In this document: piece by piece, positions 1,095 to 41,911 of the stretch | Numbering within the stretch: the stretch's first letter is position 1 | Layout of the letters: the number at the start of each line of letters is the position of its first letter | From: Naegleria gruberi | Taxonomy: Eukaryota | Assembly: GCA_000004985.1 (NCBI GenBank) | Contig: GG738855.1 | DNA: 64,000 bases | Reading direction: 5' to 3' (one strand) | Position numbers and translations under genes: made by a program | The notes under the pieces: generated by a model | Seen by the model: the letters and a program-made list of their open reading frames with translations, nothing else | What the model was told of the DNA's origin: nothing | Database searches by the model: none

Positions 1095-3117
1095 ATGAAT
1101 ATAAATATAATGGGTTTTCAGGATTATGATATTATTGAAGAGCTAGGATCTGGTTCCTACGGAAAAGTTTTCACTGTTCGGGATCGAAGAACTGGAGAAA
1201 TTTGTGTTCAGAAAATTGTTAGCCTAGATGGAGTTGATGAAAAGGATAGAGAAGAAACATTAAATGAGGTTCGTAGGAGTAATTATAATACAGTGCATTG
1301 ACTCTGAATAGGCTCGTTTAATGAGCCAGTGTGAACATTTCAATATCATTAAATATTTGGACTCTTTCATCGAGAATAACTACCTATGTATTATTATGGA
1401 ATATGCATCTGGAGGGGATCTGACAAAGAAAATTAAAGCACAACAGGGAAAACCATTCAAGGAAGATTTAGTGTGGAACTTTTTGATACAGATATCTCAA
1501 GGGTTGAAATATTTGCATGACAAGAGAATTTTGGTAAGTTTGTAAATTATTACAAATATTAAACTGATCACATATTATAGCACAGAGATCTTAAACCTCA
1601 AAATATATTTCTAGATGCAGAGGATAATATTAAAATTGGAGATATGGGTTTAGGAAGAATACTAGGACCTCAATCCTCTTTCGCCTCATCAAATGTAGGA
1701 ACACCTCTTTATCAAAGCCCTGAGCTGTGTCAGGAAAAGCCTTACAATCATAAGAGTGACATTTGGGCTTTTGGATGTCTTTTATATGAGCTAGCAGCTT
1801 TTTCACCTCCATTCTTAGCAACAAATCAGATAGCTCTAGCAAAGTAAGTCTCTTTGTTATACTAAATATACTTATGTTATAATAGGAAAATTGTTGGTGA
1901 TAGACCAAACAGTCTTCCCAAAATCTATTCTATGGAACTTCAATTTTTAATATTTAAAATGTTAGAAAAGGAGCCAAGTAAGAGACCAGATATAAACCAA
2001 ATATTGAATTATTCGGCTGTAAAGTTGAGAATTCAAAAGGCTAAGCTTAGACACAAGGAGTTAAAATTGAAGGAGCAATTTTTAACTTTGGAAAAACAAT
2101 TGAGAATGGATTATGAGACAAAAATTGATATGCTCGAAAGGAAACTCTCTGATTACAGATACCAGGAGGAGCAAGTGCAAATGGAAAGAGAAAATATTGT
2201 ACGTAAATAATTCTTAACATGGAATCTAATAATTTGTTATCTCACAACAGAGAGAAAGAGCTCAAGAGCTGGATAAGAAAGAGAATGGGCTGAGAGAACT
2301 CGAGGAAAAACTGCTGAGAAAGCAACACCAACTCAATGAGCTCATAAAACATGGGCATGTTATTATTTCAACACCAAATTCTGGGATTGGTCCCACCATC
2401 ACACCAAGCATACCATCGCCATTTACTTCGCCTGTGAAAGAGCACGGGACACCACAGAGAAAGGTCGACAGTAAATATTATAAACCTGAAACAACTAAGG
2501 TAGTACAAGAAAAGTTCAACTCACTCTATAACATGTTCCATGAACAACAACCAAATAATAGTCCTAATGCTCAGAAAGCTCGATCAGCACCATCAACACC
2601 TGTTAAAAAGCGAACCGATGCAGTTCCAAAGACTCCAAGCCCTAAACCTGTTCACAGACCAAAGAGCAATGGCAATGCTCCTCTTGAACACACACCAAAA
2701 CAAAAACGAAAGAATTCCAATCCTCCATCAACACCAAATGTAAACTCTTCCCAGGTGAGTGTTGGATCCTCAGTCCAGTTAGACTCTAAATTTGTTGGTA
2801 AGGTAATGGGTAAAATAATGCAGAAGAAGCAAACTACTGAGACACCACTAGGAAATAAGGGAAGAAAGCTAGGTATGGGAGGTTCTCCAGATGAAGGTTT
2901 GGTTGATAATAGGGTAAAGAAAAAGTTATCATTTGAAGAAAGTGAACCAACCTTATTCAGACCAATGCCAAGAACATCGCCCACATCAAGGCACTTTGAC
3001 TTTAGAATTTCAGAACCCAAAATAGAGATTGAAGAGTTCAATTCAGATGAAGAAAACTCAGAAGAAGACCTGTTCGTTTTAAGGAGGAAACTGAAAAATG
3101 AAGAACTAAACAAATAA
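1095..3117 (+). CDS. NIMA-related (NEK) serine/threonine kinase with coiled-coil and S/P/K-rich tail
   Basis: Model: join(1095..1268,1312..1533,1581..1843,1886..2198,2251..3117). Introns of 43, 47, 42 and 52 nt (donors GTTCGT, GTAAGT, GTAAGT, GTACGT; all end in AG) link five track ORFs into one frame. Kinase motifs are GSGSYGKV, HRDLKPQN, DMGLGR and SPE..KPYNHKSDIWAFGC, followed by the NEK-like LMSQCEHFNIIKY. Confidence 0.9.
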
Positions 3118-3118
3118 T

Positions 3119-6100
3119 TTATTCTGTTTGATAATAGATTACAACATTTCTTGTACCACCAGCAGCAAAGAGAGGGAACTTGTCATGGAAGCAGCACGAT
3201 CCAACTTTTTCACCTTCTATATCTTGTAAAATACCTACACACTGGGCAGTTCTGCAATTGAAGATGATAATCAAACCCTTAGACGTTCCAGTGACAAGAT
3301 ATGGAGATATTTCTGCATTTCCAGAAACTCCAATCGCTGTCACATTATCATTTGAAGAATCAGAAAGTTTAGGAATATCCTTCTTATTGTATGTGTGTAA
3401 TCTTGTAGCTGCTTCATTCAAAAAGAACAAACCACAAAGTTGAGCATTTTCAGTAACATTCTCTTTGTGAATAGCAACCAAAAATATTCCTTGGTTTGCT
3501 CCAGTGGTTACAGCCTTAATTACAGAAGAGTAAATAACAGAGTATGGATTTAAAGCTATTTTTTGGAGTAATTTTCCACTACTCATTCTCCAAATGCCAA
3601 TATATGAATTAGTACTTCCAATTACAAAATCTTTCAATTCAGGGACAAACTGAAGGTTATTGATGGCTTCCTTTCCATTAAGGGTTTGGAATGTGACAAC
3701 CTTGACCCTACTCGTAAAATCACTTGTGAGCATGTATTTTAAAAGTTCTCCATTATTGGTTGCAACCATCAAAGTAGAGTCGTAAACTTCCATACAAGAT
3801 ATTGGTGATCTTACATCATCCAAGCTTAATAGGGGTTTTTTCTCTTGACCCAACTGACTTCTGATTGATGACCCATCGATATCAAAGAATCTGATATGAT
3901 AGGAGAGAGTTCCATCAGCTTGGGCAGGATTTTCATCATCCAGTATGGACATGGTCATGGTTATTGATGGTTCAAATGAGGAAGAGGCAATAATCAACAT
4001 TTCTCCATCAGGTGTAAACTTGGAAGAATAAAACTCCTCATTTTCTTCATTTTCTAAACCAAAAAGTTCTGTTTGAATCCATTCTGATCCTGTTAGCTCA
4101 ATTAAGGATACTTGAGTCTTTGTACAAATAGTTAATCTGGGATCACCTACTGGTGAAAATATCATGTTCAAAACTGGACCCTTAATCTTGATCCTACTAT
4201 AGGACTTGAGAGGATGTTGCTTGTCTATTTTTTCGATTGGATGTCTAGGTAGAGAATTTTGTGATAGCACAGGTTGAGATCGCATAGGAGAGGCAAAACT
4301 GGCACGTGGAGGACTGGAAAGTGGAGGTGTGCTTAGATTACTTTTGTCTGCATCATTTTCAGATGTAACAGGTTTTGTGGCACTGGATGAAGCCAGCACA
4401 GGTGAGGAAGGTATTTCTTCCTCATCTTCTGATTCAAAATTCAAACTAAAATTGACAGCGATTGTTGGCTCAAGCTCATATTTAGGTTTAACATCCAAAG
4501 TTTCACCCTTGTTCACTATTGGAGGAGATCCTAAATTAGCTTTTGTTAGAATAGGTGAAAAGTTGATTGGTGGTGAACTGAAATCTTTGATTTCAAAAGT
4601 TTGAGAAGGTGTTCTTGGTGACAATTCATCATCTGTTTCATCATCTTGAACTTGCATAAATGGATTCTTCTTTTTGCTTGGAGAAATATCGCCTGGATTC
4701 AAAACTATCTTTACAGCAGAGTATTGTGTCTCTTCCACCTCTTCAAGAATTACATCAGATTTAGGAGTGGTATATGACAATATTCTACTGGTATTATGTG
4801 GTGGTGTAGACATTGGTGGTGGATTATTATCTTCTTCCATTTCATCATCACTAACATTTGCTCCTTGAGATTCAAGTGGATCGTAATAGACTGTTGGAGG
4901 AATTACAATTTGTGGTGATTGTGCCTTTTCCTTTGGCTTAATTGGAGTTGGGGTTGGTGGAACTTCTTCATCATCAATCATTGTGTCAGCTTGTTTCACA
5001 TTTCCTTCTTTTGTAGTTTCTTCTTTAGCTGGTGGTGTAATATCCAAGTTCATGGATGGAAGGGTTTGAGGTGTTTCATCGTCTTCATCTAATTTATCGG
5101 TAGATGTCTTTTCCAGAGAAATATTTGGTTTCTGAACTGTTGGTGGAGGAGGTGATGGTGCTGTTTCAGTTTTGGTTTCTAATTTCTCTTCCAGATTCGG
5201 AAGCTCGGTTGGTGTACTCAATGATGGTGAATTCAAGTCAGCACTGTCATTGGTATTGAAATTAATGTCAACAGTAGGCATAATGAGAACAGGTTTGTTT
5301 GGTGAGGGTTTTGTGGTCGGGTTAGGACTACTTTGTTTGGCTTCTATGATTGTTATTGTGGTTGTTGCAGAACTGTTGGTGGGAACTGGTTGATGATTGG
5401 CTGGTTCCAAATCCTCCATAAATAATAAATCATCACCTGGAGGCAAAGAATCAGGTGTACTACTTGGAGAATCGAGTGTTGGTGATTTTGGAAGATCAGT
5501 ATTAATTCTGAGGGGAGATTTTGGCTTTTCGATTGGTTCACAAGTTTTTGTTGTGGATTCAATTGGTTTCACTTGTTCCACAATTGTTTCAACCTCAGCT
5601 TGTACAATTTGTTCACTTGTGATGGGTGGTTTCTTCTCAATGGTTTCAATGATGGCTGGTTCAGTAAAAGATGTGTCCTTTGGAGGAGAGTTGAAAGATG
5701 TTTCAACCTTTTCCTCTTGTGTACTTTTCTTGTTATCCAGTGGTTGAATTTCTTCTCCCTCATCCAGCATTGGATCCTTTTTGACTACTTCTTCTGTTGC
5801 TATAGTTATTTCTATTAATGGCTGTACTGTAGTTTCAGAAGGTTTTTCTATGATATCTACAATCATTTTGTCTTCATTTTGCTTAATGGTTTCCTCGATA
5901 GTACTACTAGTTGGAGGAGTAGGTGGTGGAAGAATATTTTGAGATGGTAATGAGGCTGTCAAGGATGAACTAGTACTACTGGACTTTTGGGTACTGCTCT
6001 CTTGGGTTGACCTCTTGGATTGAGATGGAAGGGATGGTACTGCAAATTCTTCGTTTCGTCTCTCGATTGGCATTTTTCGATTTTGCAAAGGAGAAATAAC

Positions 6101-9493: not shown

Positions 9494-10195
9494 ATGAGTA
9501 CTTTCTTGCCACCAAATACACTCCAAAGAGTAACCAAGGAAATTTTCGACCTTCAAAAGAACAAGATTGATGGAATTGAAATTCTCACCTATGATCCTGT
9601 TAGAAATGTAGACTTGTTGAGTGATTTGAGCGAGATTTATGCTTCTATTGATGGTCCACAAGGTACTCCATTCGAAGGAGGTAAATTTACTATCAAATTG
9701 GTCTTGGATCACGAATTCCCTAATAAGCCACCAAAGGGATATTTCGTTACCAAGATTTTCCACCCAAATGTTTCTACACGTGAAGGTGAAATTTGTGTGA
9801 ATACATTGAAGAGAGATTGGAAGTCTACTCTTGGTTTCAGACATGTTCTCATGGTTATTCGTTGTTTGATGATTGAACCAAATCCTGATAGTGCTCTCAA
9901 TGCTGAAGCAGGTAGACTTATTCAAGATAACTATGAAGGTTATTCAAACAAGGCTAAGATGTTCACAGATATCTATGCCAAACAACAACAAGGTGTCACA
10001 AGTCAATCAGAACCTGAAGTGTCCAAGACCATCTCTGAAGAAACTGTTGTTGATTCCGAAAATGCTAAGGAAAATATTTGTAATGTAAATCAAACCCAAC
10101 AAAAGAAACCACTCCTCTTACTCAAAAAGCCAACTACCACCACAACCAATACTTCTACTGTTGCCAAAAAACCAGCAGGTTTGAAACGTCTGTAA
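9494..10195 (+). CDS. UBE2S: Ubiquitin-conjugating enzyme E2, UBE2S-like (APC/C K11 chain-elongating E2 family)
   Basis: A single 233-aa ORF. It contains FPNKPPKGYFVTKIFHPNVSTREGEICVNTLKRDWKSTLGFRHVLMVIRCLMIEPNPDSALNAEAGRL, which closely parallels the UBE2S UBC core (FP..PPKGYFLTKIFHPNV...GEICVNVLKRDW...HPNPESALNEEAG). It has a long C-terminal extension ending in a basic patch (KKPLLLLKKP...AKKPAGLKRL). Confidence 0.88.
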   Translation: MSTFLPPNTLQRVTKEIFDLQKNKIDGIEILTYDPVRNVDLLSDLSEIYASIDGPQGTPFEGGKFTIKLVLDHEFPNKPPKGYFVTKIFHPNVSTREGEICVNTLKRDWKSTLGFRHVLMVIRCLMIEPNPDSALNAEAGRLIQDNYEGYSNKAKMFTDIYAKQQQGVTSQSEPEVSKTISEETVVDSENAKENICNVNQTQQKKPLLLLKKPTTTTTNTSTVAKKPAGLKRL

Positions 10196-17670: not shown

Positions 17671-19938
17671 ATGCTTCAAAAATCAACAAGAAGAATTTCA
17701 TCACTTTATGCTGGTTGTGGTCGTATTTCATCAACACCATCATCATCGGGAGTTGTACTCAACACTAATAGTTCAATCAAAATAATTAACCATCAATACA
17801 GATGTTATAATAATCATTTGGCAAAATTAAATCGTCTATCGGAATTATCAAATAATAACAAGAAACAATTTAAAAATCATCGTGATAGACAATATCAACC
17901 AATGGATAACATTGAAACACCAAAGGAAGTAAAGAATGATGTAACTACAGAATCCTATACTAAAATATTGAAAAAGTTCTTCTTAAAGGTTCACCCTGAC
18001 TTTTTCCAACAAGATCCACCAAAACAACAACAAAACAAGGAGTCCTTCTCAAAATTGAACGAACTTTTAAATTGGACTAACGAATATACCCAATTAACAC
18101 TTGATAATAAGAATTTGAATGAAGAGGAAATAGCTGACCTGGAAAAGAGATTGAATAGACTTGGTCCTATTCCAAGCGTTGATGAATCATTTGTTTTCTA
18201 TGTTAAGGAAACTGGAAGACAAAAATCTGAACCATTTAGAATTGAAGTTTTGTTTTCTTTACCAAAGAAGGTTCAATTCAATGGAAAATTAAAGAGTAGA
18301 TTGATTTTAACTCAACGTTTGGAAGAATTAGTAACTTCACTTTTGGAAAAATCAAAAATCATAACTGCTGAGGAAGCTAAAGCAAGAAGAGACATTGCTT
18401 TGGAACAATACAGAGAAATGGAAGAGTCCGTGGGTTCAAAGGGTAAGAAGACCTATAAATCACTGAAAGAAGAGTTACGTATGGCTCTCCAAAATAATTT
18501 ACAAGGAGCAGTCAACCTTGAAAAATTAAGAAGAGGTGAAGAAGATGATGAAGAATGGTGGTGGGATAAAGACTTGCCATCCATTGAACACTTGGTTACA
18601 CACGGCATGCTCTTCTTCTCTAAGAATATTACAGCAGAACAAACCATCAAAGCTATGAATCAATTGAAGAATGGTCTTGGTGAGATGAGATATTATGAAT
18701 GGAGTGATATTCCATTAATGATTACAGAAAAAACTGGCAAGTATGCTGTAAATGATCCTGTTGATGGGTTCATTTGCATTCCTTATGACTTTACTCCATT
18801 CGATTTTGTCAAGGAAATCATTACCAACGAAAAGAACATGACACTCCTCGTTGAAAAACGTGAATTGACAAGAAAAAAGGCCGAAGCTATTCAAAACATT
18901 AGAGAAAAACTTATTGAAGAAGTTGGTTTCTCTGATTTAACCATTTCACCAGAATTGACCTCAGAAGAACTCTATACATTTATTGAAAACTTTGAAAAGA
19001 GATACTTAAGTAATGACAAGATGAAATTGTTACTGAAAGACCTCTGTATCATCATTGATAACAAGTATTCAGCAAGTCCAGATGGATACATTTCAATTCA
19101 TTGGAACTTTATGCACAATGGAAAGGACAATATGTTCGAATTTTTGAAAGATTTAGGAGCTCAAAAAATCAAGAATATCAAAGATATGGGAAGAACTCTC
19201 AGCAATCTTAAGAGAGCATGTGTTTCACTCGGTGAAGAACTCATTGATAAACTTAAATGTAAAGAACTCAATTTGACAACCTATGCCGATTTGAACGAAT
19301 CCAATATGAAACGGTATCAAACTCTCCCAGTTACCCACGAATATATGAAACGATTGAGAGAATGTTGCCTCTTCTTGGAACGTTATGATTGGAGCACACA
19401 TACTTTCTATTTGGTCAATACTTTGGATTTACCTAAAGGTTTCAAACTTCCACTCAAACAAGTTCCTCATGTCAAGACAGAGGCCGATGTTAAGAGTTTA
19501 ATGAGAAGAATGACAATATATGGTGATACTATCATTGATATGGGCGCCAGAGCAGTCTATATTCCTGTAAACTTTACTGAAAATCAATTGTTCGAAACAG
19601 TCAACAAATATTGGAAGATGATTGAAAAACCTCAATTGCAATTGGATGGTGATGATTTTACAGATGTTGTAGATCCTCAAGGATTCCAACAATATAGAAA
19701 TTTGGCCTCTGAACTCGTCAAACAAGCTGAGTTTATGCTGACAAAGAAGAGAGCAGAAAGATATCAACAATTGGCTGAATTCCTCAACAGTCTTGAAGAT
19801 CAACAATTGTATGGTAAGGGTGCCAATAGTATTATGGAAGCAGCACTAGATAGACAAGAAGATGAAAGATATATCAATCTGTATCGTACTTGGTTCAGAA
19901 TTAGAGATATTCCATTAGATGTTTTTGAAACTCAATAA
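17671..19938 (+). CDS. TCAIM-like mitochondrial protein (DUF4460/DUF4461-type)
   Basis: A single 755-aa ORF with a basic, S-rich N-terminus. FFLKVHPDFFQQDPPKQQQNKESFSKLNELLNW resembles the signature FAVHPDFF..HP.E...NE.SLK.LN block of TCAIM/C3orf23. The family call is from memory. Confidence 0.55.
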   Translation: MLQKSTRRISSLYAGCGRISSTPSSSGVVLNTNSSIKIINHQYRCYNNHLAKLNRLSELSNNNKKQFKNHRDRQYQPMDNIETPKEVKNDVTTESYTKILKKFFLKVHPDFFQQDPPKQQQNKESFSKLNELLNWTNEYTQLTLDNKNLNEEEIADLEKRLNRLGPIPSVDESFVFYVKETGRQKSEPFRIEVLFSLPKKVQFNGKLKSRLILTQRLEELVTSLLEKSKIITAEEAKARRDIALEQYREMEESVGSKGKKTYKSLKEELRMALQNNLQGAVNLEKLRRGEEDDEEWWWDKDLPSIEHLVTHGMLFFSKNITAEQTIKAMNQLKNGLGEMRYYEWSDIPLMITEKTGKYAVNDPVDGFICIPYDFTPFDFVKEIITNEKNMTLLVEKRELTRKKAEAIQNIREKLIEEVGFSDLTISPELTSEELYTFIENFEKRYLSNDKMKLLLKDLCIIIDNKYSASPDGYISIHWNFMHNGKDNMFEFLKDLGAQKIKNIKDMGRTLSNLKRACVSLGEELIDKLKCKELNLTTYADLNESNMKRYQTLPVTHEYMKRLRECCLFLERYDWSTHTFYLVNTLDLPKGFKLPLKQVPHVKTEADVKSLMRRMTIYGDTIIDMGARAVYIPVNFTENQLFETVNKYWKMIEKPQLQLDGDDFTDVVDPQGFQQYRNLASELVKQAEFMLTKKRAERYQQLAEFLNSLEDQQLYGKGANSIMEAALDRQEDERYINLYRTWFRIRDIPLDVFETQ

Positions 19939-19944
19939 ATATAT

Positions 19945-22182
19945 TTATTTCACCAAGTCCAAATAGTTTCCAGAATTATTATCAATATACTTGACCGAAC
20001 AAGACAAACAAGGAAGCAAAATTAAGGGAAGAGGAAGCAAAAACAATGTGGCAAACCCAAAAGAGTACTGTTCTGGATAAGCAATGATAATGGCATGATG
20101 AACGAATAAACAAATCAGACTACACAGTACGGTAATGTACATGTTAATGTACAAACAACGTTTGGTTTTCGAATAGAGAGCTCTACACTCCAAGCAACAC
20201 CACAAAAAGGCAATAAATATCGTTCCAGCAAACAAGAGAAACTCTACTACAAATAGTGGAATCATAGCCACTGCCCAATCAATCTCTGACTCAATAGAAA
20301 ATTGATGAGTAATCATGATTGAACACAGCATACTATAACAAAATGCCACTATTAAAATGATAGAGTTGCAAGTAGAAGTGAGCTTGGAAATCACTGTTCT
20401 GAATTTGATACTTCTCACAATCAACCAAATAAAACAATAAATCAGCATGATTGTCGAAAGTCCACCAAAAACGGCAAACAAATACCATGGAGATTGACTG
20501 AATTGAGAATGAGGCAGACACAAGTACAAATTCCACACAAGTGCAAAAACAATTCCACAAATAGATAAGAGTAACAATCCAATACATGACATGACACTAT
20601 CAAAAAACATCTTCCTCAAACTCAAGATATTCCTCTGTTTTTCCCTTCTCTTACTGTTATTCCTGAGCGCAATTCCAAGTTTCCTCGCTGAAAGTCTCAA
20701 CTCTATTATGGACGATACGAGAATATTAATCATTCCACAATAGAGTGGAAAGAATACCACAATCCAACTCCACTCATTCTCATAATCAATACCAACATTC
20801 ATCAACACTCCCTTAATGGAGAATCCCAATATGAAACATGTGAAAAAGATGTAAACCAAGGGTGCAGAAAATACAAAGTGAATAGAAGATAGCCCCTCAA
20901 TGTCATCCAAAATGAGTTGCTCTGATAGTGGAATAGTTGTGAAACGATCTGATTTTTTCTTTTCAATCTTTCTAAATATGTCAATTCCAAATTGTTTGAC
21001 TTTCTTTTCAGTTTTCAAACATTCACAATAACAATCCTTCTCGAAAATAATATCATTCACTCCCTCAATTGTTACCGATTTGTACTTTTTAAACATAGAT
21101 GGAGGTATCTGAACAGTTGATTCCTCGCTATCACAATCTGATTCATTAATTAGTGTCAATATTTCCATTTCTTCCTCTTCAGAAACATATTCTTCTGAGG
21201 TAAGAGTTTCTGATAATTGATGATCAATCAGAGCAGTTTGGCTAGCACCACTATTATTCGAAAACTCATCCATTTCAATTGAAATTACCTCCTGATGGTT
21301 TCTCTCACCACGTGGAGATTCAATATCCTCAATAAATTCCATAATTTTTGGTGGTGAAAAACATGAATTTTCTATTTTACAAACTCCTCCCAAGTCCAAT
21401 AGAGAAGGTTTCGTATTCACCTTCTTTCCATTCGACATTAAATAATTTAAATGATATTGACCTAAATTTCCACCCTTCTTCCTATTGAAAAAGTAATTCT
21501 TAACTGCCAATATTCTTCTCTTTACAACTTTTTCCTGCACATAAATATCAAAATCCTTAAAGTATAATAATTTCAATTCTCGTATCTTGATTTGATATAA
21601 TCTATTCCAAAAACGTTGTTCTCTATCCAGAAAATTGTACCACATTGAACAAGTATGTGATAAATTGACCATTGTCAAAGAATCATCCAAAAACTCTGAA
21701 ATAATCATCAAAATATCATTTGCAATAATATTCTCAAAATTATGCCATTCAACAGGTTTCAATCGTTGATTATTATTACGATGACGATGATGATGATGAT
21801 TTGCACCATCCAATATAATTGTTCCTTCCTCCTCCGAATCATCATTTCTATTTTCCATTATTATTGTTGTGGTGGTGTTGTGATTGTTGTTGTTATATGA
21901 AGAACTGAGGGCGTGAAAAATTCTGGCAATTGGTGATTTGGTATTGGTTCGTTGTTGATTGTTTATAATGGGAGAAGGTGGCTGGTCAGTTTGGATTGTG
22001 ATATGTTCTTCATCAACATCATGTCTTTCCATCAATAATTGATTACGAGATTGACTAACATGAGTAGTGACAGGTATTGGTGAGTCATCTTCGGAGAGGA
22101 GAGATTCAGAGTTTGCAAAACCAATTTCCGAAGTTTGAATTTGATGGTTGGATTTATTGGTGGATGATCGTTTTCTAGTCAT
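19945..22182 (-). CDS. F-box-like domain fused to a C-terminal polytopic (about 8-10 TM) membrane domain
   Basis: A single 745-aa ORF with ATG at 22182 after an A-run. The F-box-like segment is NDILMIISEFLDDSLTMVNLSHTCSMWYNFLDREQRFWNRLY. The C-terminal 330 aa consist of successive hydrophobic helices. It is paralogous to 35012..37813. Confidence 0.75.
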   Translation of the reverse strand: MTRKRSSTNKSNHQIQTSEIGFANSESLLSEDDSPIPVTTHVSQSRNQLLMERHDVDEEHITIQTDQPPSPIINNQQRTNTKSPIARIFHALSSSYNNNNHNTTTTIIMENRNDDSEEEGTIILDGANHHHHRHRNNNQRLKPVEWHNFENIIANDILMIISEFLDDSLTMVNLSHTCSMWYNFLDREQRFWNRLYQIKIRELKLLYFKDFDIYVQEKVVKRRILAVKNYFFNRKKGGNLGQYHLNYLMSNGKKVNTKPSLLDLGGVCKIENSCFSPPKIMEFIEDIESPRGERNHQEVISIEMDEFSNNSGASQTALIDHQLSETLTSEEYVSEEEEMEILTLINESDCDSEESTVQIPPSMFKKYKSVTIEGVNDIIFEKDCYCECLKTEKKVKQFGIDIFRKIEKKKSDRFTTIPLSEQLILDDIEGLSSIHFVFSAPLVYIFFTCFILGFSIKGVLMNVGIDYENEWSWIVVFFPLYCGMINILVSSIIELRLSARKLGIALRNNSKRREKQRNILSLRKMFFDSVMSCIGLLLLSICGIVFALVWNLYLCLPHSQFSQSPWYLFAVFGGLSTIMLIYCFIWLIVRSIKFRTVISKLTSTCNSIILIVAFCYSMLCSIMITHQFSIESEIDWAVAMIPLFVVEFLLFAGTIFIAFLWCCLECRALYSKTKRCLYINMYITVLCSLICLFVHHAIIIAYPEQYSFGFATLFLLPLPLILLPCLSCSVKYIDNNSGNYLDLVK

Positions 22183-22335
22183 TTTTTTAATGTCGTTTCC
22201 ACCGAGATGACAAATGAAAACTTGTTTTAAAAGATGTTTGGTTGACCTCAGTTTTATGAACCAAATTATGAACTTCTTAACATCATAACTATTTGTATTC
22301 TTAATTTTGTAAACAAGTTCTTTGATTGAATTTAA
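22137..22335. repeat. Direct repeat copy A. It covers the 5' end of the F-box/TM gene plus the spacer up to the DUF4116 ATG.
   Basis: Hand alignment to 23645..23890. For example, gatttattggtggatgatcgttttctagtcatttttttaatgtcgtttc aligns with gatttattggcggaagatcgttttcttgtcatttctttaatatcgtttc with 5 mismatches in 49 nt, and aaaagatgtttggttga aligns with aaaagatgtttggctga. Confidence 0.7.
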
Positions 22336-22340
22336 AAAAA

Positions 22341-23609
22341 ATGCTCAAACGTTTCAACAAATTTCCTCTCAAAATGATCATCTTGCCCTCTGGATACACA
22401 CCTACGCTCCGACAATCACATTCCAATCAAAATGTTGAAAACAACTCCTCCTCCTACCTCAACAATCTTCAAAATATGATCAATGAGGCTTGTTATTCAG
22501 ATGTTGTTGGATCCTATCTCAAAACTGAATTGGTGGATGCCTACATGCAAAAGAATCCCTTCCCAAATAATCAATCAATAATGGAGGAGGGAGTCACACG
22601 TTTAGGATATCTTTTGAAATATTCCAATGACAATGTTAAGAGAAATAAGAATCTTGTTAGTTCTGCTTTGAATGATGAATATCAAAATGAGGTGTTTGAA
22701 TTTTCACATGAATCACTGCGATGTGACAAGTCATTTATTATTGAGAATGTCATTGGAAAGTGTCATGTAATATTACCTTACTTGTGTGATGAATTAAAAA
22801 GAGACAAGGAATTAATCTTGAAAATTATAGAAAGAAATTGTCGTGACTTGTACTATGCCCCTGATGAATTGAAAAGTGACAGGGATATTATTGCAATGGC
22901 AGGTAGAACGAATTTGATGGTCGCTTATGAAAATGGTTCCAAAGAAATACAGCAAGACAGAGAATTCTGGAAGGATTTAATGTCATCAAAATGTTGCAGT
23001 TTTGTTTTTGGAATCCCATTTCCCTTAAATAACGATTTGGAGATGATGAATATTGCTGTGGAGCGTAATTCATTTTTTGCAATTAGTTCAACTTCGAATG
23101 AATTAAGAAATGATCGAGAGCTCATATTAAAAGCAGTGAAATTGGATGGATGGGCTCTCAAGTGGGCATCTGTTGAATTGCAAGATGATTTTGAGATTGT
23201 TTTGGAAGCTGTTAAATGTACTGGGCTTGCTTTTGAGTATGCTTCTGAAAAATTGAGAAATAATGAGATTATTACAATGGAGGCAGTGAAAACATATCCA
23301 AATGCACTATATCATACTCCAACATTGTATGATAATTGGCAGATTGTCATGACAGCTGTCAAAGTGAATGGATGGGCTCTCAAGTGGGCGTCTGATAAAT
23401 TACAAGGAGATTTTGAAATTGCTTTGGAAGCTGTCAAATCAAATGGTGAAGCTCTCCAGTTTGCATCTAAGGAATTGAGAAGTAATAAGATGATTGTAAT
23501 GGAGGCAGTAAAACAGAATGAATTTTCCATCAGATTTGCTTCTGAAGAGCTTCAAAATGATAGTGAAGTTGTAGCTGCTTCTAGAAAATACAGAATATCT
23601 AAAATGTGA
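22341..23609 (+). CDS. DUF4116 repeat protein
   Basis: ORF 22326..23609, with the first ATG at 22341 after an A-run. It contains at least 8 tandem units of about 30 aa of the DUF4116 type (..D.E.vL.AVK.nG.AL.yAS.eLr.D..iv..AV..). Examples are VKLDGWALKWASVELQDDFEIVLEAVK, GLAFEYASEKLRNNEIITMEAVK and GEALQFASKELRSNKMIVMEAVK. Confidence 0.8.
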   Translation: MLKRFNKFPLKMIILPSGYTPTLRQSHSNQNVENNSSSYLNNLQNMINEACYSDVVGSYLKTELVDAYMQKNPFPNNQSIMEEGVTRLGYLLKYSNDNVKRNKNLVSSALNDEYQNEVFEFSHESLRCDKSFIIENVIGKCHVILPYLCDELKRDKELILKIIERNCRDLYYAPDELKSDRDIIAMAGRTNLMVAYENGSKEIQQDREFWKDLMSSKCCSFVFGIPFPLNNDLEMMNIAVERNSFFAISSTSNELRNDRELILKAVKLDGWALKWASVELQDDFEIVLEAVKCTGLAFEYASEKLRNNEIITMEAVKTYPNALYHTPTLYDNWQIVMTAVKVNGWALKWASDKLQGDFEIALEAVKSNGEALQFASKELRSNKMIVMEAVKQNEFSIRFASEELQNDSEVVAASRKYRISKM

Positions 23610-23644: not shown

Positions 23645-23890
23645 CAGTTAGAGTTTGTTGCATCCTTTTTGGAATCTTCCTCTACATTTACACAAGAGAG
23701 TTGTTTGTGATTAATAATGAATTTGATGATTTATTGGCGGAAGATCGTTTTCTTGTCATTTCTTTAATATCGTTTCTGTGACAAGTGAAATCTTCAAAAG
23801 ATGTTTGGCTGATGGTTATTATTGGTTACCAAATCATAACATCCTTTAAAATAATTATTCCTCTTTGTGAACTATTCAATTAAACTAAAG
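23645..23890. repeat. Direct repeat copy B, a diverged copy of 22137..22335 lying 3' of the DUF4116 gene
   Basis: See copy A. This copy contains a dead start region of an F-box/TM paralogue and a copy of the promoter spacer. Confidence 0.7.
23688..23759 (-). pseudogene. Truncated 5' stub of an F-box/TM paralogue (24 codons then stop)
   Basis: The minus strand from 23759 reads ATG ACA AGA AAA CGA TCT TCC GCC AAT AAA TCA.. = MTRKRSSANKSSNSLLITNNSLV*. The intact neighbour begins MTRKRSSTNKSNHQIQTSE... (22182 downwards). No continuing ORF follows. Confidence 0.6.
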
Positions 23891-35011: not shown

Positions 35012-37813
35012 ATGACCGAACATGATCATCATGAAGAAGAGAACAAACATGCTACTAGTTTACCGACAGGTTCCATAGAATTGGATGAAGTCATAACAAC
35101 AATTTCAACGACAAATAATCAATTGCAACAAACTTCTAATAACCATTCCGAAAATTCATCATCAAATCATTCTTCAACAACCTCTACAACAACTCGGAAT
35201 CACCCTAACCTTCCGGAAATAATAATTCCAAAGAATGAAGATATTATCGTAGCCATTTCCAAACATCATACCTCTCCAAATTCTCACCATATTCCCAATA
35301 ATAATACATCTACAGATATTGTCTTTGAGGATAATGGTGAATCCAATACTAGTTTTATGAATACAGAAGATGATATAATTTCAGATTCAACACAAGAGGA
35401 AAACCTCTATGATGATATTGTTCTATCAAATCCGACCCAACCAAACTCTGCGCGATCCAATAGTAACAATAGTACGGCAACAACAACAAGTAGTAACCAA
35501 CCCTCTCCTCTTCAACAATTAAACATTCAGCCCCATCATCAAATACAGGATGGTAGAGTTTCTCCCTCTGCAAATCCCTATCCGACAAGTTCTAATTCAT
35601 CAATTAAACAACAACATTCGGTAATCACGACTCCATCTCCTCCTTCGATTCCTTTTTCATCAGCTGCTACAAGACACCATGTAAATAATAATACACCAAC
35701 ATCATCACTACACAAACATACCACCACTACACCAACCGTAAATATATCAAGACATTATAGTGGCACCAGTAACAAATCTGATATTATCAGTATTGAATCA
35801 TCTTACTCTGAAACTTCGAGTTACAAAGCTAAAAGACATAGAGAAAGGAATATACAATACCAAACCAATACTGTATCTGAAAGGTCAAACAATTCTCATA
35901 GACAATCCAAATTACCTCCCTCTCTCATTTCTGATTTTACACCAAATAGAAACTCTCTAGTAAGGTTTCAAGAAGATAATATCATTGATAATAATTTACA
36001 TCATCAAATTTCCAAGAGACTCACATCCTCTCCAAGGGCTGAAGATGATCAAAGAATGATTGCAAGCAATTTCTTCACCAATGCCTCAGTGCCTAATCTT
36101 TTATCAATTGGAAGTAATATTTTCTTTTCTGGAAACAAGACCTCTACTGTCACAAGTAATAATGTAGACAAGTATAAGGATACTACAAATGTTCTAAGCT
36201 TACCAGATAATATTATGCTGCACATTTTCTCATTTGTTGGAATTCAATATGCAGAGGATAACAATTACAACATGCTCTGTAAGAGGTGGTATGTCTTGTT
36301 GTGCTTGGATTATTTGTGGAAGGAGAGATACTTTAATTTTTTCAATTCGAGATCAATTCAAGCAAATCCAATGCTTCTTTCATATTCTAAAGATTTTGAT
36401 TTTCCTCAAAGAAGCAAATTTAGATATAATTTAATCTTATTGAGAAAGAAGAAGCACCTCCTCAAGCAACGTCTTCTATCTCAAAACAGACACGAAAAAT
36501 CAAGAAGATACTTCCTATTCAACTCATTTGTATTGAATCCATTAGTTGCAATAATATGTTTCATGATTTCCACTGTAGTGTTTGGCCTACAAGAGGATGG
36601 TGTAATTCCAAAGAATGATAGAAATACTTTACTCTTTGTTTTTTTGCCTTTCTTCACATCATTCCTGTTTTCCATTGTTGGAAATGTTTCACTTGGTTTG
36701 AGAGAGACCATTTTCTGCAAGAATGGATTTTATGACATTTCTCACTTTATCCATTTTCTTGTTATTGTACTCGGACAGTACACATTCTATTTTTGCTCTT
36801 TACTGTTTGGTTTAAAGTGGTTTTGGTTTAAAACCTCTTTATGGACTTCCTTCTCCATTCCATGCCTTTGTATCTATATCATGTTTGTTGGATTTTGCTT
36901 TGCATATATTTTGCATAAGTATGTCAAAAGAAGAATTCAATTCCAAGATATGAGAAAGGATAGACCCAACCTGAGTGTAAATAGTCCTGAATACTTTTAT
37001 TTTGCTTATAGACTGAGATCTCATAAGAGAAGAGAATTCTACTCAAAAGCCAAATATATTGCACAACCATACGATGATGATTTTATAGAGTTGAGTGAAG
37101 ATGAAGATATGGGAAATGATACAGATGAGGATCTTGAGGATACTTTTGATGACTCTACTGCATTTGATGATGAAACTGAAACAACATCAAGAAAAACTGA
37201 TGAAATGGTTTCAACACCAAAGACCAGGGAAAGAAAGAAAGAGACAGCCAAGCTTTCTGTCTTTAAAGAGTTTGATAATCAAATGCATATTCAAGATATT
37301 ACTGACATATCCACACTTACCATTATTGTATTTATATTTCTCATACTATTTATGGTAGGATTGGAGATGATTCTGGTACCCCTCAAAATTGATGGGATTA
37401 TTGTATCTTCTTGGAGTTCTGTGTTTGTACCTCTATGGATAGTAATGTTCATTCTTTTATGTGGATTGCCGTCGTGGATAACATGGGAAATTTGCACCAA
37501 AACCAATTTAGACAAGAAAACAATAAGCACTTCAGTGGATGTCATTACTGAAGAATTTTCAAAGGCAACCACCAAAAATAAGAATGACCCAGAAAGATAC
37601 CAACGAGCATATTATTCGTTTGTTGCATGTCCATGGTGTTTTACCATTCCATTGTTTGTTGCTTTGGTTGTTCTTGCAGCCACTCTTGATGGAGCCAACA
37701 TTCCATATGTTGTTTCCTGTGCATTATTTGCATTTTGTGAGTTTGTAATTGGTGGCCTTTACTTGATGATTGTTATACCTTATACTCTAGCACACAACGT
37801 TTGGGATGTTTGA
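35012..37813 (+). CDS. F-box-like domain fused to a polytopic membrane domain (paralogue of 19945..22182)
   Basis: ORF 34997..37813, with the first ATG at 35012. The F-box-like segment is LPDNIMLHIFSFVGIQYAEDNNYNMLCKRWYVLLCLDYLWKERYF. Two blocks of hydrophobic helices follow, separated by an acidic loop (DDDFIELSEDEDMGNDTDEDLED). Confidence 0.75.
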   Translation: MTEHDHHEEENKHATSLPTGSIELDEVITTISTTNNQLQQTSNNHSENSSSNHSSTTSTTTRNHPNLPEIIIPKNEDIIVAISKHHTSPNSHHIPNNNTSTDIVFEDNGESNTSFMNTEDDIISDSTQEENLYDDIVLSNPTQPNSARSNSNNSTATTTSSNQPSPLQQLNIQPHHQIQDGRVSPSANPYPTSSNSSIKQQHSVITTPSPPSIPFSSAATRHHVNNNTPTSSLHKHTTTTPTVNISRHYSGTSNKSDIISIESSYSETSSYKAKRHRERNIQYQTNTVSERSNNSHRQSKLPPSLISDFTPNRNSLVRFQEDNIIDNNLHHQISKRLTSSPRAEDDQRMIASNFFTNASVPNLLSIGSNIFFSGNKTSTVTSNNVDKYKDTTNVLSLPDNIMLHIFSFVGIQYAEDNNYNMLCKRWYVLLCLDYLWKERYFNFFNSRSIQANPMLLSYSKDFDFPQRSKFRYNLILLRKKKHLLKQRLLSQNRHEKSRRYFLFNSFVLNPLVAIICFMISTVVFGLQEDGVIPKNDRNTLLFVFLPFFTSFLFSIVGNVSLGLRETIFCKNGFYDISHFIHFLVIVLGQYTFYFCSLLFGLKWFWFKTSLWTSFSIPCLCIYIMFVGFCFAYILHKYVKRRIQFQDMRKDRPNLSVNSPEYFYFAYRLRSHKRREFYSKAKYIAQPYDDDFIELSEDEDMGNDTDEDLEDTFDDSTAFDDETETTSRKTDEMVSTPKTRERKKETAKLSVFKEFDNQMHIQDITDISTLTIIVFIFLILFMVGLEMILVPLKIDGIIVSSWSSVFVPLWIVMFILLCGLPSWITWEICTKTNLDKKTISTSVDVITEEFSKATTKNKNDPERYQRAYYSFVACPWCFTIPLFVALVVLAATLDGANIPYVVSCALFAFCEFVIGGLYLMIVIPYTLAHNVWDV

Positions 37814-40948: not shown

Positions 40949-41911
40949 CTAATTGAAAATCTTCCAAATGCCTCTGATTGACTTTTGGTGAACAGCATAT
41001 GGAACCTCAAGAAGACCTCTCAACATTTTCATAATATCTAACCCCATTGTTAAACCGATAATACCAGCAATAGAACCCAATAAACCTGGAATATCTGTCG
41101 ATAGGACTTCATCAATAACTTGAACATCAAGCGTTCCATAAGAGACAGAGATAATAATATCTGCAGAACTGGCATTCGATATTTTGATTTGTGACAAGGT
41201 TGGCTCCCACAGTGTAGTTGAATTCCCATCAAGAAAGTTCTTTGTCACCTTATTCAGAGTATACATATTATCCTTGTATGGAGAAGCAAATTGTGTCTCT
41301 GCAAAAATGTCAGCTTCAGCAGCTATTTCATGGAATGAAATCTGAGCACCATATTTCCCTGCAGTAGGAGCTTTCATTTTAAAGTTCAATGATATTGATC
41401 CTCCAAATCCTGCAGTTGATGTTGTCTTAATACTCTTAATTTCATTATTAAGAAAATAACAATTAAATTTCAGTCCAGAAGTTACAATCTCCTTCTTTTG
41501 ATTTGTAATGGTTGTTGAAGACTTTACTCCAGAGCTGGAGTAAGAATAAGCTCCAGTAAAAGTAATATCACAATAATCACAAGCTTCGGAAGGAGGCTTG
41601 GCATTATAATTACAAATGGTCATCCCAGGAAATTCCATCTTATCCTGAGTGACATACGAGATTGTTGTTGTAGGCTGGTTTTTACTCTTCTCATAGGTAT
41701 CCGATACGTCATAAATATACCAGCCACTAAATCCTAGAAAAATCAACCAACCAATAATTGCGAAAATATCCCTTACTGCAAATTTCCATTTCTTTTTAGG
41801 AGCAGCTGGAGCAGAAATTTGTATACCTATTTTCTCTCCAACCTTTTCAACTCCTTCTACAAGAGTATGCACGGGAACAGTTGAATTCATTTTTTTAAGC
41901 ATGTAGTTCAT
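40949..41911 (-). CDS. Miniature ENaC/DEG/ASIC-family-like two-TM channel subunit (about 313-320 aa)
   Basis: A single ORF, with an alternative ATG at 41890 in an A-run context. TM1 is IFAIIGWLIFLGFSGWYIY, followed by EFPGMTICNYN (compare the family post-TM1 motif FPAVT.CN). A roughly 210-aa ectodomain follows, then IPGLLGSIAGIIGLTMGLDIMKMLRGL (compare LLGDIGGQMGLFIGASILT..E preceding and within TM2). Confidence 0.62.
   Translation of the reverse strand: MNYMLKKMNSTVPVHTLVEGVEKVGEKIGIQISAPAAPKKKWKFAVRDIFAIIGWLIFLGFSGWYIYDVSDTYEKSKNQPTTTISYVTQDKMEFPGMTICNYNAKPPSEACDYCDITFTGAYSYSSSGVKSSTTITNQKKEIVTSGLKFNCYFLNNEIKSIKTTSTAGFGGSISLNFKMKAPTAGKYGAQISFHEIAAEADIFAETQFASPYKDNMYTLNKVTKNFLDGNSTTLWEPTLSQIKISNASSADIIISVSYGTLDVQVIDEVLSTDIPGLLGSIAGIIGLTMGLDIMKMLRGLLEVPYAVHQKSIRGIWKIFN

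What the first reader, a model, noticed from the sequence alone, without database searches (positions are those of the whole stretch)
19945..22182. An F-box fused to a polytopic membrane domain, one of two paralogues in the window
Genes 19945..22182 (-) and 35012..37813 (+) share one architecture: a long low-complexity N-terminus, an F-box-like helix bundle (ILMIISEFLDDSL..CSMWYNFL..FWNRLY and IMLHIFSFVG..CKRWYVLL..LWKERYF), and then 8 or more predicted TM helices. F-box proteins are normally soluble SCF substrate adaptors. An integral-membrane F-box would tether an SCF ligase to a membrane, or couple a transporter- or receptor-like domain to ubiquitylation. A third copy existed and has decayed (stub at 23688..23759), which indicates an actively turning-over family.
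Basis: partly seen in the sequence, partly recalled or inferred. Interest (0 to 1): 0.55.

Follow-up and report, generated by a model that had tools for sequence, protein, structure and literature searches.

The report
Membrane-embedded F-box proteins in Naegleria
Two Naegleria gruberi genes each join a ubiquitin-ligase docking motif (F-box) to an eight-helix membrane domain that, clearly in one gene and weakly in the other, resembles the poorly understood TMEM185 domain, which plants and humans also pair with ubiquitin ligases.

Summary
The window is Naegleria gruberi. Both ORFs are real. Each encodes a disordered N-terminus, then an F-box, then eight TM helices, and the positive-inside rule puts the F-box in the cytosol.

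**p2 (35012..37813, NAEGRDRAFT_78867).** It passes Pfam F-box-like. Its TM5-8 is homologous to TMEM185/"Fragile-X-F" (hhalign 93-95%, z=14-16 against decoys).

**p1 (19945..22182, NAEGRDRAFT_47219).** It fails the F-box models itself (I-A replaces L-P), but its Willaertia orthologue passes (33.5 bits). The F-box block is the best-conserved part of the family. RefSeq truncates p1 to 380 aa with an invented intron. Orthologues support the continuous ORF.

**Relationship of the two genes.** p1 and p2 are at best very distant paralogues. They belong to two separate single-copy families, both older than the Naegleria/Willaertia split.

**The "decayed third copy".** This is a ~110-140-nt duplicate of p1's own 5' end. 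With its partner it brackets a DUF4116 gene.

**Best reading.** These are integral-membrane SCF substrate adaptors. They parallel plant TMEM185-RING ligases (SGD1/DGS1/TT3.1, AtPPRT1) and the human TMEM185A/B-CHIP complex. Skp1 binding is untested, and I found no paper describing this architecture. I rate it a new variant of a known kind, of moderate interest.

The parts
19945..22182 (-). p1 coding sequence (745 aa + stop), NAEGRDRAFT_47219; one continuous ORF
   Evidence: ORF list. The N-terminal 372 aa match XP_002680069.1. Full-length orthologues are P0002, P0003, P0005 and P0006. The RefSeq model truncates it with an invented intron at 20699-21084.
21736..22182 (-). p1 residues 1-149: low-complexity, disordered, unconserved N-terminus
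   Evidence: AF2 pLDDT below 50. Family identity is 11%.
21487..21735 (-). p1 residues 150-232: F-box core (about 152-196, IIANDILMIISEFLDD...CSMWYNFL...FWNRLY) plus the invariant Y-x-KDFD-x-x-VQE-x-V helix
   Evidence: This is the most conserved block of the family (45% identity, against 7-11% in the flanks). Orthologues hit PF12937/PF00646 in these columns. The top PDB profile hit is the FBXW7 F-box, but at E=0.68. p1 itself gives no Pfam hit.
19978..20892 (-). p1 residues 431-735: eight TM helices, N-in/C-in, as four helix hairpins each with a W/F-x-W/F-x3-hydrophobic-x-P/G-L motif
   Evidence: Hydropathy. AF2 helices with pLDDT 60-87. K+R is 21 in the cytosolic loops and 0 in the outer loops. 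There is weak profile similarity to the p2 TM domain and to TMEM185A.
35012..37813 (+). p2 coding sequence (933 aa + stop), NAEGRDRAFT_78867
   Evidence: 100% identical to P0007. Orthologues are P0008, P0009 and P0010.
36182..36496 (+). p2 residues 391-495: F-box (LPDNIMLHIFSF...LCKRWYVLL...LWKERY) plus the following KDFD-containing segment and basic pre-TM stretch
   Evidence: PF12937 scores 24.4 bits over residues 395-441. Orthologues score 23.2-28.0 bits. The top PDB profile hits are Skp2, FBXO42, TIR1 and FBH1 F-boxes (E 1.3e-3 to 0.1).
36497..36931 (+). p2 residues 496-640: TM helices 1-4
   Evidence: Hydropathy. Family identity is 74%. On its own it shows no detectable similarity to TMEM185A (z=0.3). 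It aligns colinearly in the whole-domain hhalign.
36932..37285 (+). p2 residues 641-758: conserved acidic cytosolic loop inserted between TM4 and TM5
   Evidence: Alignment A3. Family identity is 47%. The flanking K/R residues place it in the cytosol.
37286..37810 (+). p2 residues 759-933: TM helices 5-8, a TMEM185/Fragile-X-F-like half-domain (LKIDGIIVSSWSSVFVPLW motif)
   Evidence: PF10269 scores 19.6-22.4 bits in all four orthologues, below the cut-off of 23.1. hhalign against a Pfam-validated TMEM185A gives 93-95% probability, E 5e-8 to 3e-7, z=14-16 against decoys.
23718..23850 (.).
   Evidence: the repeat finder families D2 and D5. Pairwise alignment. A 34-mer has 2 matches against 0 expected. 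blastn and tblastn show no further p1-like sequence.

Best explanation
Both genes encode integral membrane proteins of Naegleria gruberi. Each has a long disordered cytosolic N-terminus, an F-box, a short conserved helical linker (KDFD motif) and eight TM helices with both ends in the cytosol.

**The two proteins**
- p2's membrane domain is a divergent TMEM185/Fragile-X-F domain, split by a conserved acidic cytosolic loop.
- p1 belongs to a faster-evolving family restricted to Naegleria, Willaertia and close relatives. It has the same layout and only weak similarity to p2 and TMEM185.

**Most likely mechanism (inferred, not shown)**
- The F-box docks Skp1-Cul1-Rbx1 on the cytosolic face of an endomembrane or the plasma membrane.
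- The polytopic domain anchors the ligase and selects membrane-embedded or membrane-proximal clients for ubiquitylation.
- This would be an SCF version of the cis fusion that plants build with a RING finger (SGD1/DGS1/TT3.1, AtPPRT1), and of the trans arrangement in humans, where TMEM185A/B recruits the U-box ligase CHIP.

**What is shown**: the architecture, its conservation, the topology signal, the F-box profile matches, and the TMEM185 homology of p2 TM5-8.

**What is inferred**: Skp1 binding, SCF assembly, the substrate class and the cellular location.
For: - **Organism and genes.** The proteins are XP_002680069/NAEGRDRAFT_47219 and NAEGRDRAFT_78867.
- **The fusion is conserved in a single ORF.** This holds in N. 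lovaniensis, Willaertia magna and metagenome sequences for p1, and in N. fowleri, Willaertia and a metagenome sequence for p2.
- **F-box.**
  - p2 and two of its orthologues reach the PF12937 cut-off.
  - The p1 Willaertia orthologue scores 33.5 bits.
  - The p2 profile's best PDB hits are all F-boxes, with Skp2 at E 1.3e-3.
  - The F-box block is the most conserved cytosolic segment: 45% in the p1 family and 60% in the p2 family, against 7-16% in the flanks.
- **Topology.** The positive-inside rule is strongly satisfied with the F-box in the cytosol.
- **TMEM185 link.** PF10269 gives sub-threshold hits in 4 of 4 p2 orthologues. hhalign gives 93-95% probability and z=14-16.
- **p1 similarities.** p1 versus TMEM185A gives z=4.4, and p1 versus p2 gives z=3.5 (TM) and 6.6 (F-box block), with 0 of 60 decoys reaching the real score in each case.
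- **Precedents linking this TM domain to E3 ligases.** These are plant "seven-TM Fragile-X-F + C3HC4 RING" ligases working with an ERAD E2 (PMC10226984; PMC10987426; PMC6358930), and human TMEM185A/B co-immunoprecipitating with CHIP at the ER (bioRxiv 10.1101/2023.07.17.549407).
Against: - p1 itself fails both Pfam F-box models. It carries I-A where orthologues have L/I-P. From my own knowledge, this proline belongs to the Leu-Pro pair often mutated to abolish Skp1 binding.
- The p2 F-box scores sit right at the cut-off.
- The p1-TMEM185 and p1-p2 similarities are weak: hhalign probability 10-46%, and a HMMER decoy test was not significant (best rank 43 of 5000).
- p2 TM1-4 alone shows no similarity to TMEM185A.
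- No experimental data exist for Skp1 binding, localisation or substrates.
- The N. fowleri p1 orthologue is broken over three reading frames. If that is real, the gene is dispensable there.
Confidence: 0.55

Rival explanations
1. The F-box-like segment is a relic or a general helical module that no longer binds Skp1, especially in N. gruberi p1. The proteins then act purely as TMEM185-like membrane proteins with a long regulatory cytosolic tail.
For: - p1 gives no Pfam F-box hit and has I-A in place of L-P.
- p2's scores are borderline, 23.2-28 bits against a cut-off of 24.3.
- Fold searches of the p1 F-box model found no F-box structure.
Against: - The F-box block is the best-conserved cytosolic region in both families.
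- The canonical positions (LPxxhhxxIhxxL...C+xW..L....LW) are kept almost perfectly in p2 and in three p1 orthologues.
- A relic would not be expected to be conserved above the level of the TM domain, as it is in the p1 family.
Confidence: 0.2
2. The F-box binds Skp1 but works outside a cullin ligase, as yeast Rcy1 does in endosome-to-Golgi recycling (from my own knowledge). The proteins would then regulate membrane traffic or the assembly of a membrane complex rather than ubiquitylate clients.
For: - The architecture places a Skp1-docking site permanently on a membrane.
- No recognisable soluble substrate-binding domain (WD40, LRR, Kelch) follows the F-box.
Against: - No positive evidence supports this.
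- The two known partners of the same TM domain are bona fide ligases (RING in plants, CHIP in humans). That favours a ubiquitylation role.
Confidence: 0.12
3. The polytopic domain is a transporter- or receptor-like sensor whose state (ligand, temperature, lipid) is coupled to SCF activity.
For: - The rice orthologue of the plant TMEM185-RING protein (TT3.1) is described as a plasma-membrane thermosensor in PMC10226984.
- The TM helices contain conserved polar residues: E647, E665 and H695-H696 are invariant in the p1 family.
Against: - No similarity to any solved transporter or receptor fold. The Foldseek PDB matches were generic helical bundles with E>=0.54 and TM-score <=0.2 relative to the query.
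- The domain is built from four two-helix hairpins, like TMEM185, for which no transport activity is known.
Confidence: 0.1
4. Gene-model artefact. The F-box part and the TM part are separate genes or exons of different proteins, as the RefSeq model of p1 (380 aa, no TM domain) implies.
For: XP_002680069.1 ends after residue 372 with a 14-residue tail read in another frame, after a predicted intron.
Against: - The window has one uninterrupted 745-codon ORF.
- Orthologues from N. lovaniensis, Willaertia and two metagenome contigs are colinear across the junction, and the predicted "intron" encodes conserved residues (the EKDCY..., KGILM...DYE.W.W..VF.P block).
- p2's RefSeq model already contains both parts.
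Confidence: 0.03

Closest known systems
Plant TMEM185-RING E3 ligases: SGD1 (Setaria), DGS1/TT3.1 (rice), AtPPRT1-3 (Arabidopsis)
   Same: A polytopic "transmembrane Fragile-X-F" (Pfam Tmemb_185A) domain is fused in one polypeptide to a ubiquitin-ligase module that faces the cytosol. These proteins are located at the plasma membrane and ER, work with an ERAD E2, and ubiquitylate a membrane receptor (PMC10226984, PMC10987426, PMC6358930).
   Different: - The ligase module there is a C-terminal C3HC4 RING, which recruits an E2 directly. Here it is an N-terminal F-box, which would recruit Skp1-Cul1-Rbx1.
- Neither Naegleria protein contains a RING.
- The Naegleria TM domains fall below the PF10269 cut-off, and p2 carries a 120-residue acidic loop in the middle of the domain.
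Human TMEM185A/TMEM185B (FRAXF-associated; function unknown)
   Same: - p2 TM5-8 aligns with TMEM185A residues 151-240 at 93-95% hhalign probability, sharing the L-K-[LI]-D-x-I-I-x2-W-x2-VF-x-P-L-W hairpin motif.
- TMEM185A/B form a complex with an E3 ligase (CHIP) at the ER (bioRxiv 10.1101/2023.07.17.549407).
   Different: - The human proteins have no ligase-docking domain in cis. They recruit CHIP through a C-terminal EEVD-like peptide.
- They lack the long N-terminal extension and the F-box.
- The TMEM185A sequence I used was recalled from memory. I validated it only as a PF10269 member (207 bits).
Canonical F-box proteins (Skp2, FBXW7, TIR1 and relatives)
   Same: The N-terminal-side F-box has the LPxxhL...CKRW...LW signature. 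The p2 profile's best PDB hits are Skp2, FBXO42, TIR1 and FBH1, and the p1 profile's top hit is FBXW7.
   Different: - Canonical F-box proteins are soluble and carry WD40, LRR, Kelch or other soluble substrate-binding domains.
- From my own knowledge, membrane association in known cases comes from lipid anchors (FBXL2, Legionella AnkB), a single TM segment in one isoform (FBXW7-beta) or partner proteins, not from an eight-helix domain.
- No paper in the searchable library describes a polytopic F-box protein.

Membership tests
F-box (Pfam PF12937 F-box-like / PF00646 F-box) | Profile score at or above the curated cut-off, for p2 | tested here: met
   PF12937 scores 24.4 bits against a cut-off of 24.3 for p2. 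Orthologues score 28.0, 25.0 and 23.2 bits.
F-box (Pfam PF12937 / PF00646) | Profile score at or above the curated cut-off, for p1 | tested here: not met
   p1 gives no hit at E<=1. The orthologous columns do score in relatives: Willaertia 33.5 bits on PF12937 and 22.3 bits on PF00646 (both above cut-off), a metagenome sequence 22.7 bits, N. lovaniensis 15.7 bits. Membership for p1 therefore rests on orthology only.
F-box | Signature residues: Leu-Pro start, hydrophobic helix 1, C-[KR]-x-W in helix 3, trailing L-W | tested here: inconclusive
   p2 has all of them (LPDNIMLHIF...LCKRWYVLL...LWKERY; alignment with Skp2). p1 keeps the hydrophobic core, CSxW and FW, but has I-A in place of L-P, while its orthologues have IP or LP.
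F-box | Three-helix F-box fold | tested here: inconclusive
F-box | Binds Skp1 and assembles with Cul1/Rbx1 | not testable with these tools
   This needs co-IP, two-hybrid or a multimer prediction with Naegleria Skp1. Only single chains from the window could be modelled here.
TMEM185 / Transmembrane Fragile-X-F (Pfam PF10269) | Profile score at or above the curated cut-off (23.1 bits) | tested here: not met
   p2 scores 19.6 bits. Its orthologues score 22.4, 20.3 and 20.4 bits, all with E 1e-4 to 8e-4 but below the cut-off. In the p1 family the best score is 14.8 bits.
TMEM185 / Fragile-X-F | Profile-profile homology to a validated family member, for p2 | tested here: met
   hhalign of the p2-family TM alignment against TMEM185A gives 93-95% probability and E 5e-8 to 3e-7. 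The real score is 55-57, while column-shuffled decoys average 15 and peak at 26 (z=14-16). The signal lies in TM5-8; TM1-4 alone gives z=0.3.
TMEM185 / Fragile-X-F | Profile-profile homology to a validated family member, for p1 | tested here: inconclusive
   hhalign gives 13-15% probability and E about 2e-3. The score of 30.8 exceeds all 60 decoys (maximum 27.6, z=4.4). The HMMER decoy test was not significant.
TMEM185 / Fragile-X-F | Eight TM helices built from four hairpins with a repeated hydrophobic W-x-W-x2-VF-x-P-L-W motif | tested here: met
   This is read directly from the sequences.
- p2: LQEDGVI...LLFVFLPFF; SLWTSFSIPCL; LKIDGII..SWSSVFVPLW; TLDGANI...
- p1: EWSWIVVFFPLY; PWYLFAVFGGL; DWAVAMIPLF; FGFATLFLLPLP.
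- An offset hhalign hit of p2 TM5-8 on TMEM185A TM1-4 (75% probability) shows the internal repeat.
Plant TMEM185-RING ligases (SGD1/DGS1/TT3.1/PPRT) | C-terminal C3HC4 RING finger | tested here: not met
   Neither p1 nor p2 gives any RING hit. Both proteins end 10-14 residues after TM8. They are analogues, not members.
p1 and p2 as paralogues of one family | Significant sequence or profile similarity over the shared architecture | tested here: inconclusive
   - BLASTP E=0.002.
- p2 was not retrieved by exhaustive phmmer with p1.
- hhalign gives 46% probability, E 2e-4 for TM1-4; 32%, E 5e-4 for the F-box + KDFD block; and 10.7% for a colinear eight-TM alignment.
- Decoy z-scores are 3.5 (TM) and 6.6 (F-box block).

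The most novel reading that the evidence does not exclude
The TMEM185 membrane domain is an ancient platform for membrane-localised ubiquitylation that has been wired to three different classes of E3 machinery in three eukaryotic supergroups: SCF through a cis F-box in Heterolobosea, a cis RING in plants, and the U-box ligase CHIP through a C-terminal peptide in animals. On that reading, the Naegleria proteins would be the first integral, polytopic F-box proteins, that is, SCF substrate receptors that read their clients inside the bilayer. They would also supply a testable function for the uncharacterised human TMEM185A/B.
Probability: 0.3. Interest if true: 0.72.

Novelty: new variant of a known kind. 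Interest (0 to 1): 0.52.

Why it matters
F-box proteins are the textbook soluble substrate adaptors of SCF ligases. Membrane-embedded E3 ligases are almost all RING or HECT proteins. A conserved F-box fused to an eight-helix domain would put an SCF ligase permanently in a membrane.

The membrane domain also matters. In p2 it is the TMEM185 domain, whose function in animals is unknown. Two independent cis fusions to ligase modules (RING in plants, F-box in Naegleria and Willaertia), together with the reported CHIP complex in human cells, form a domain-fusion argument that this domain's general job is to bring ubiquitylation to membrane clients. That turns the question "what does TMEM185 do?" into experiments that can be run.

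On a practical level, the RefSeq model of NAEGRDRAFT_47219 is wrong, because it lacks the whole membrane domain.

Tried and rejected
- **Word-indexed homologue searches.**
  - With full-length p1 the search returned nothing.
  - With the p2 TM alignment it also returned nothing, even though family members are in the database.
  - The exhaustive phmmer search and a search with the p2 F-box-to-end region did work.
- **Exact look-up of p1.** It failed because the RefSeq model differs from the ORF.
- **Fold searches.**
  - The afdb50 library was unavailable, so I could not compare against the AlphaFold TMEM185A model.
  - Foldseek against PDB with the full p1 model gave only generic helical bundles.
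- **PDB profile search with the whole p1 family.** No hits.
- **Metagenome contig scans with both families.** No hits.
- **HMMER decoy test of p1 against p2 TM domains.** Not significant.
- **Synteny.**
  - The N. lovaniensis and N. fowleri p1 orthologues sit next to a NUFIP1 gene.
  - N. gruberi p1 does not, so synteny could not explain the stub.
- **Nearby E2 as an ERAD-type partner.** I considered whether the E2 at 9494..10195 could be an ERAD-type E2 partner. I rejected this because it is a UBE2S orthologue with no TM anchor.
- **Gene-model artefact.** Considered and rejected; see the rival explanations.
- **Literature.** Searches for a polytopic F-box protein or an F-box/TMEM185 link found nothing relevant.
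Full report
**Source and genes.** The window is a compact, intron-poor eukaryotic genome of about 34% G+C. Exact or near-exact protein matches identify it as Naegleria gruberi.
- The first 372 residues of the ORF at 19945..22182(-) equal XP_002680069.1/NAEGRDRAFT_47219. I call this protein p1.
- The ORF at 35012..37813(+) equals NAEGRDRAFT_78867. I call this protein p2.
- Neighbouring genes are ordinary eukaryotic housekeeping and signalling genes: RhoGEF-PH, IleRS, thiolase, SRP54, a Pex2/12 RING protein, a UBE2S-like E2 and a DUF4116-repeat protein. Nothing in the neighbourhood bears on function.

**Checking the observation.** Both ORFs are uninterrupted.
- Hydropathy finds eight hydrophobic segments in each. 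In p1 they lie at about residues 436-731. In p2 there are four at 503-634 and four at 765-923, separated by an acidic loop of about 120 residues.
- An AF2 model of p1 shows the same eight long helices at pLDDT 60-87, with residues 1-152 and 234-378 disordered.
- Loop charges obey the positive-inside rule. With the N-terminus in the cytosol, p1 has 21 K+R in cytosolic loops and 0 in outer loops, and p2 has 29 against 4. So the F-box faces the cytosol, which SCF assembly requires.

**The F-box.**
- p2 scores 24.4 bits on Pfam F-box-like, with a cut-off of 24.3. Its N. fowleri, metagenome and Willaertia orthologues score 28.0, 25.0 and 23.2 bits.
- A profile of the p2 F-box region finds only F-box proteins at the top of the PDB list. 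Skp2 scores E 1.3e-3, followed by FBXO42, TIR1 and FBH1, in the canonical register.
- p1 gives no Pfam hit. The same alignment columns score in its orthologues: Willaertia 33.5 bits (E 3.5e-8, plus PF00646 at 22.3 bits), a metagenome sequence 22.7 bits, N. lovaniensis 15.7 bits.
- The N. gruberi protein has I-A where the others have L-P or I-P.
- The F-box, together with an invariant Y-x-KDFD-x-x-VQE-x-V helix, is the best-conserved part of the p1 family. Its mean pairwise identity is 45%, against 30% for the TM domain and 7-11% for the flanking linkers. That argues for function.
- A structural test was uninformative. The AF2 model of the 87-residue block had pLDDT 64.5 and did not retrieve F-box folds.

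**Gene model.** RefSeq truncates p1 to 380 aa. It splices from about 21084 to 20699 and then reads 14 codons in another frame.

**Family and distribution.**
- An exhaustive phmmer search of 1.84 billion cluster representatives with p1 residues 140-745 found five proteins. One is the N. gruberi model itself. The others come from N. lovaniensis, N. fowleri, Willaertia magna and a metagenome sequence. All share the same layout.
- p2 has orthologues in N. fowleri (73% identity over the F-box-to-end region), a metagenome sequence (66%) and Willaertia (51%).
- Each species contributes one member per family, so there is no sign of expansion or turnover.
- p1 evolves much faster than p2.
- In the N. 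fowleri assembly the p1 orthologue is split over three reading frames. This is either assembly indels or a pseudogene.

**Are p1 and p2 paralogues?**
- Ordinary searches say no.
- Profile-profile comparison gives weak, colinear signals. TM1-4 aligns at 46% probability, E 2e-4. The F-box plus KDFD block aligns at 32%, E 5e-4. All eight helices align at 10.7%.
- I calibrated the scores against decoys in which alignment columns were shuffled inside 10-column windows, which preserves the hydropathy pattern. The real scores exceeded all 60 decoys (z=3.5 for the TM domains, z=6.6 for the F-box block).
- A HMMER-based decoy test was not significant.
- I conclude that a very old common origin is plausible but unproven. 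If real, the split predates the Naegleria/Willaertia divergence.

**The membrane domain.**
- All four p2-family proteins give sub-threshold hits to Pfam Tmemb_185A ("Transmembrane Fragile-X-F protein"), at 19.6-22.4 bits against a cut-off of 23.1.
- I recalled the human TMEM185A sequence from memory and validated it as a family member (207 bits over the full profile).
- hhalign of the p2 TM alignment against it gives 93-95% probability, E 5e-8 to 3e-7, and z=14-16 against decoys. The core match is LKIDGIIVSSWSSVFVPLW against LKLDRIIHWPWLVVFVPLW.
- An offset alignment of p2 TM5-8 onto TMEM185A TM1-4 (75% probability) shows the internal duplication typical of this domain.
- The signal lies in TM5-8. 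TM1-4 alone is not detectably similar, although it carries the same hairpin motif by eye.
- For p1 the similarity to TMEM185A is weak (13-15% probability, z=4.4). I treat it as suggestive only.
- No solved transporter or receptor fold resembles the p1 model. The AlphaFold database library, which would hold TMEM185 models, was not available.

**The "third copy".** The 23-codon stub at 23688..23759 begins MTRKRSSANKS, while p1 begins MTRKRSSTNKS.
- At the DNA level a segment of about 110-140 nt (22136-22290) reappears at 23718-23850 with 76-90% identity. It contains p1's first 11-15 codons and about 100 nt upstream.
- The similarity stops sharply, and no other p1- or p2-like coding sequence is found nearby.
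- Only about 80 nt separate the stub from the stop codon of the DUF4116 gene, which the two repeat copies bracket.
- So this is a local duplication of p1's 5' end and promoter region, associated with the DUF4116 gene. It is not the remains of a third paralogue.

**Mechanism.**
- Shown: a cytosol-facing, conserved F-box joined in one polypeptide to an eight-helix membrane domain.
- Inferred: the F-box recruits Skp1-Cul1-Rbx1 (universal eukaryotic components, not checked here), and the membrane domain anchors the ligase and selects membrane clients.

The inference gains weight from two independent precedents for this TM domain.
- Plants fuse it to a C-terminal RING. These ligases include SGD1, DGS1/TT3.1 and AtPPRT1. 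They sit at the plasma membrane and ER, pair with the ERAD E2 UBC32/UBC45, and ubiquitylate the receptor BRI1 (PMC10226984, PMC10987426, PMC6358930).

Naegleria would be a third solution, with the ligase supplied by an F-box. The rivals are a degenerate F-box, a Skp1-dependent but cullin-independent role, a sensor-coupled ligase, and a gene-model artefact. They are weighed in the structured fields.

**Novelty and score.** The proteins are in public databases as "predicted protein" or, by automatic rule, "F-box domain-containing protein".
- The TMEM185 relationship is below Pfam's threshold and so is not annotated.
- The N. gruberi p1 model lacks its membrane domain.
- Ten full-text searches found no paper describing a polytopic F-box protein or an F-box/TMEM185 link.
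- This is a new variant of a known kind (membrane-embedded E3 ligase/F-box adaptor), not a new category.
- I score interest at about 0.5. The architecture is unusual for F-box proteins, and the three-way association of TMEM185 with ligases gives an uncharacterised conserved human protein a testable function. Against that, Skp1 binding is untested, p1's own F-box is sub-par, and the p1-TMEM185 link is weak.

Noticed in passing
window 22136-22290 and 23718-23850: A direct repeat of about 110-140 nt (76-90% identity) brackets the DUF4116-repeat gene at 22326..23609(+). It carries p1's start codon, first 11-15 codons and upstream DNA. This looks like a duplication linked to insertion or duplication of the DUF4116 gene.
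   Followed up: partly
window 20699-21084: The RefSeq model XP_002680069.1 (380 aa) removes this stretch as an intron and ends in another frame. That deletes the whole membrane domain. Orthologues show that the stretch is coding.
   Followed up: yes
L002 1351-4112 (N. fowleri VFQX01000029.1): The N. fowleri p1 orthologue is split over three reading frames (ORFs 1351..3234, 2843..3553, 3591..4112). The annotated model bridges this with an "intron" that drops TM1-4. The cause is either assembly indels or a pseudogene.
   Followed up: partly
L001 6694-7857; L002 162-1301: The N. lovaniensis and N. fowleri p1 orthologues both have a NUFIP1-domain gene immediately upstream on the same strand. N. 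gruberi instead has the DUF4116 gene and an unrelated 272-aa ORF, so the locus was rearranged in N. gruberi.
   Followed up: partly
window 21715-21729 (p1 residues 152-156, IIAND): N. gruberi p1 has Ile-Ala where all orthologues have Leu/Ile-Pro at the start of the F-box. This position is usually important for Skp1 contact.
   Followed up: no
window 36932-37285 (p2 residues 641-758): A conserved, highly acidic cytosolic loop (DDDFIELSEDE...DTFDDSTAFDDETE...) is inserted in the middle of the TMEM185-like domain. It shows 47% identity across the family. It may be a regulatory or sorting element.
   Followed up: no
window 9494-10195 (+): A UBE2S-type E2 (E 2.5e-49 to human UBE2S) with a long basic C-terminal tail ending in GLKRL. 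It is not membrane-anchored and has no evident link to the F-box genes.
   Followed up: yes
window 40949-41911 and 42036-42977 (-): Two adjacent ORFs both hit the amiloride-sensitive sodium channel (ENaC/ASC) family. They are probably one gene split by an intron.
   Followed up: no
window 19938-19945: The stop codons of the convergent genes 17671..19938(+) (DUF4460/DUF4461) and p1 (-) are only 6 nt apart, so their 3' UTRs must overlap.
   Followed up: no
The word-indexed protein search returned nothing for p1 and for the p2 TM alignment, although family members are in that database.
   Followed up: partly
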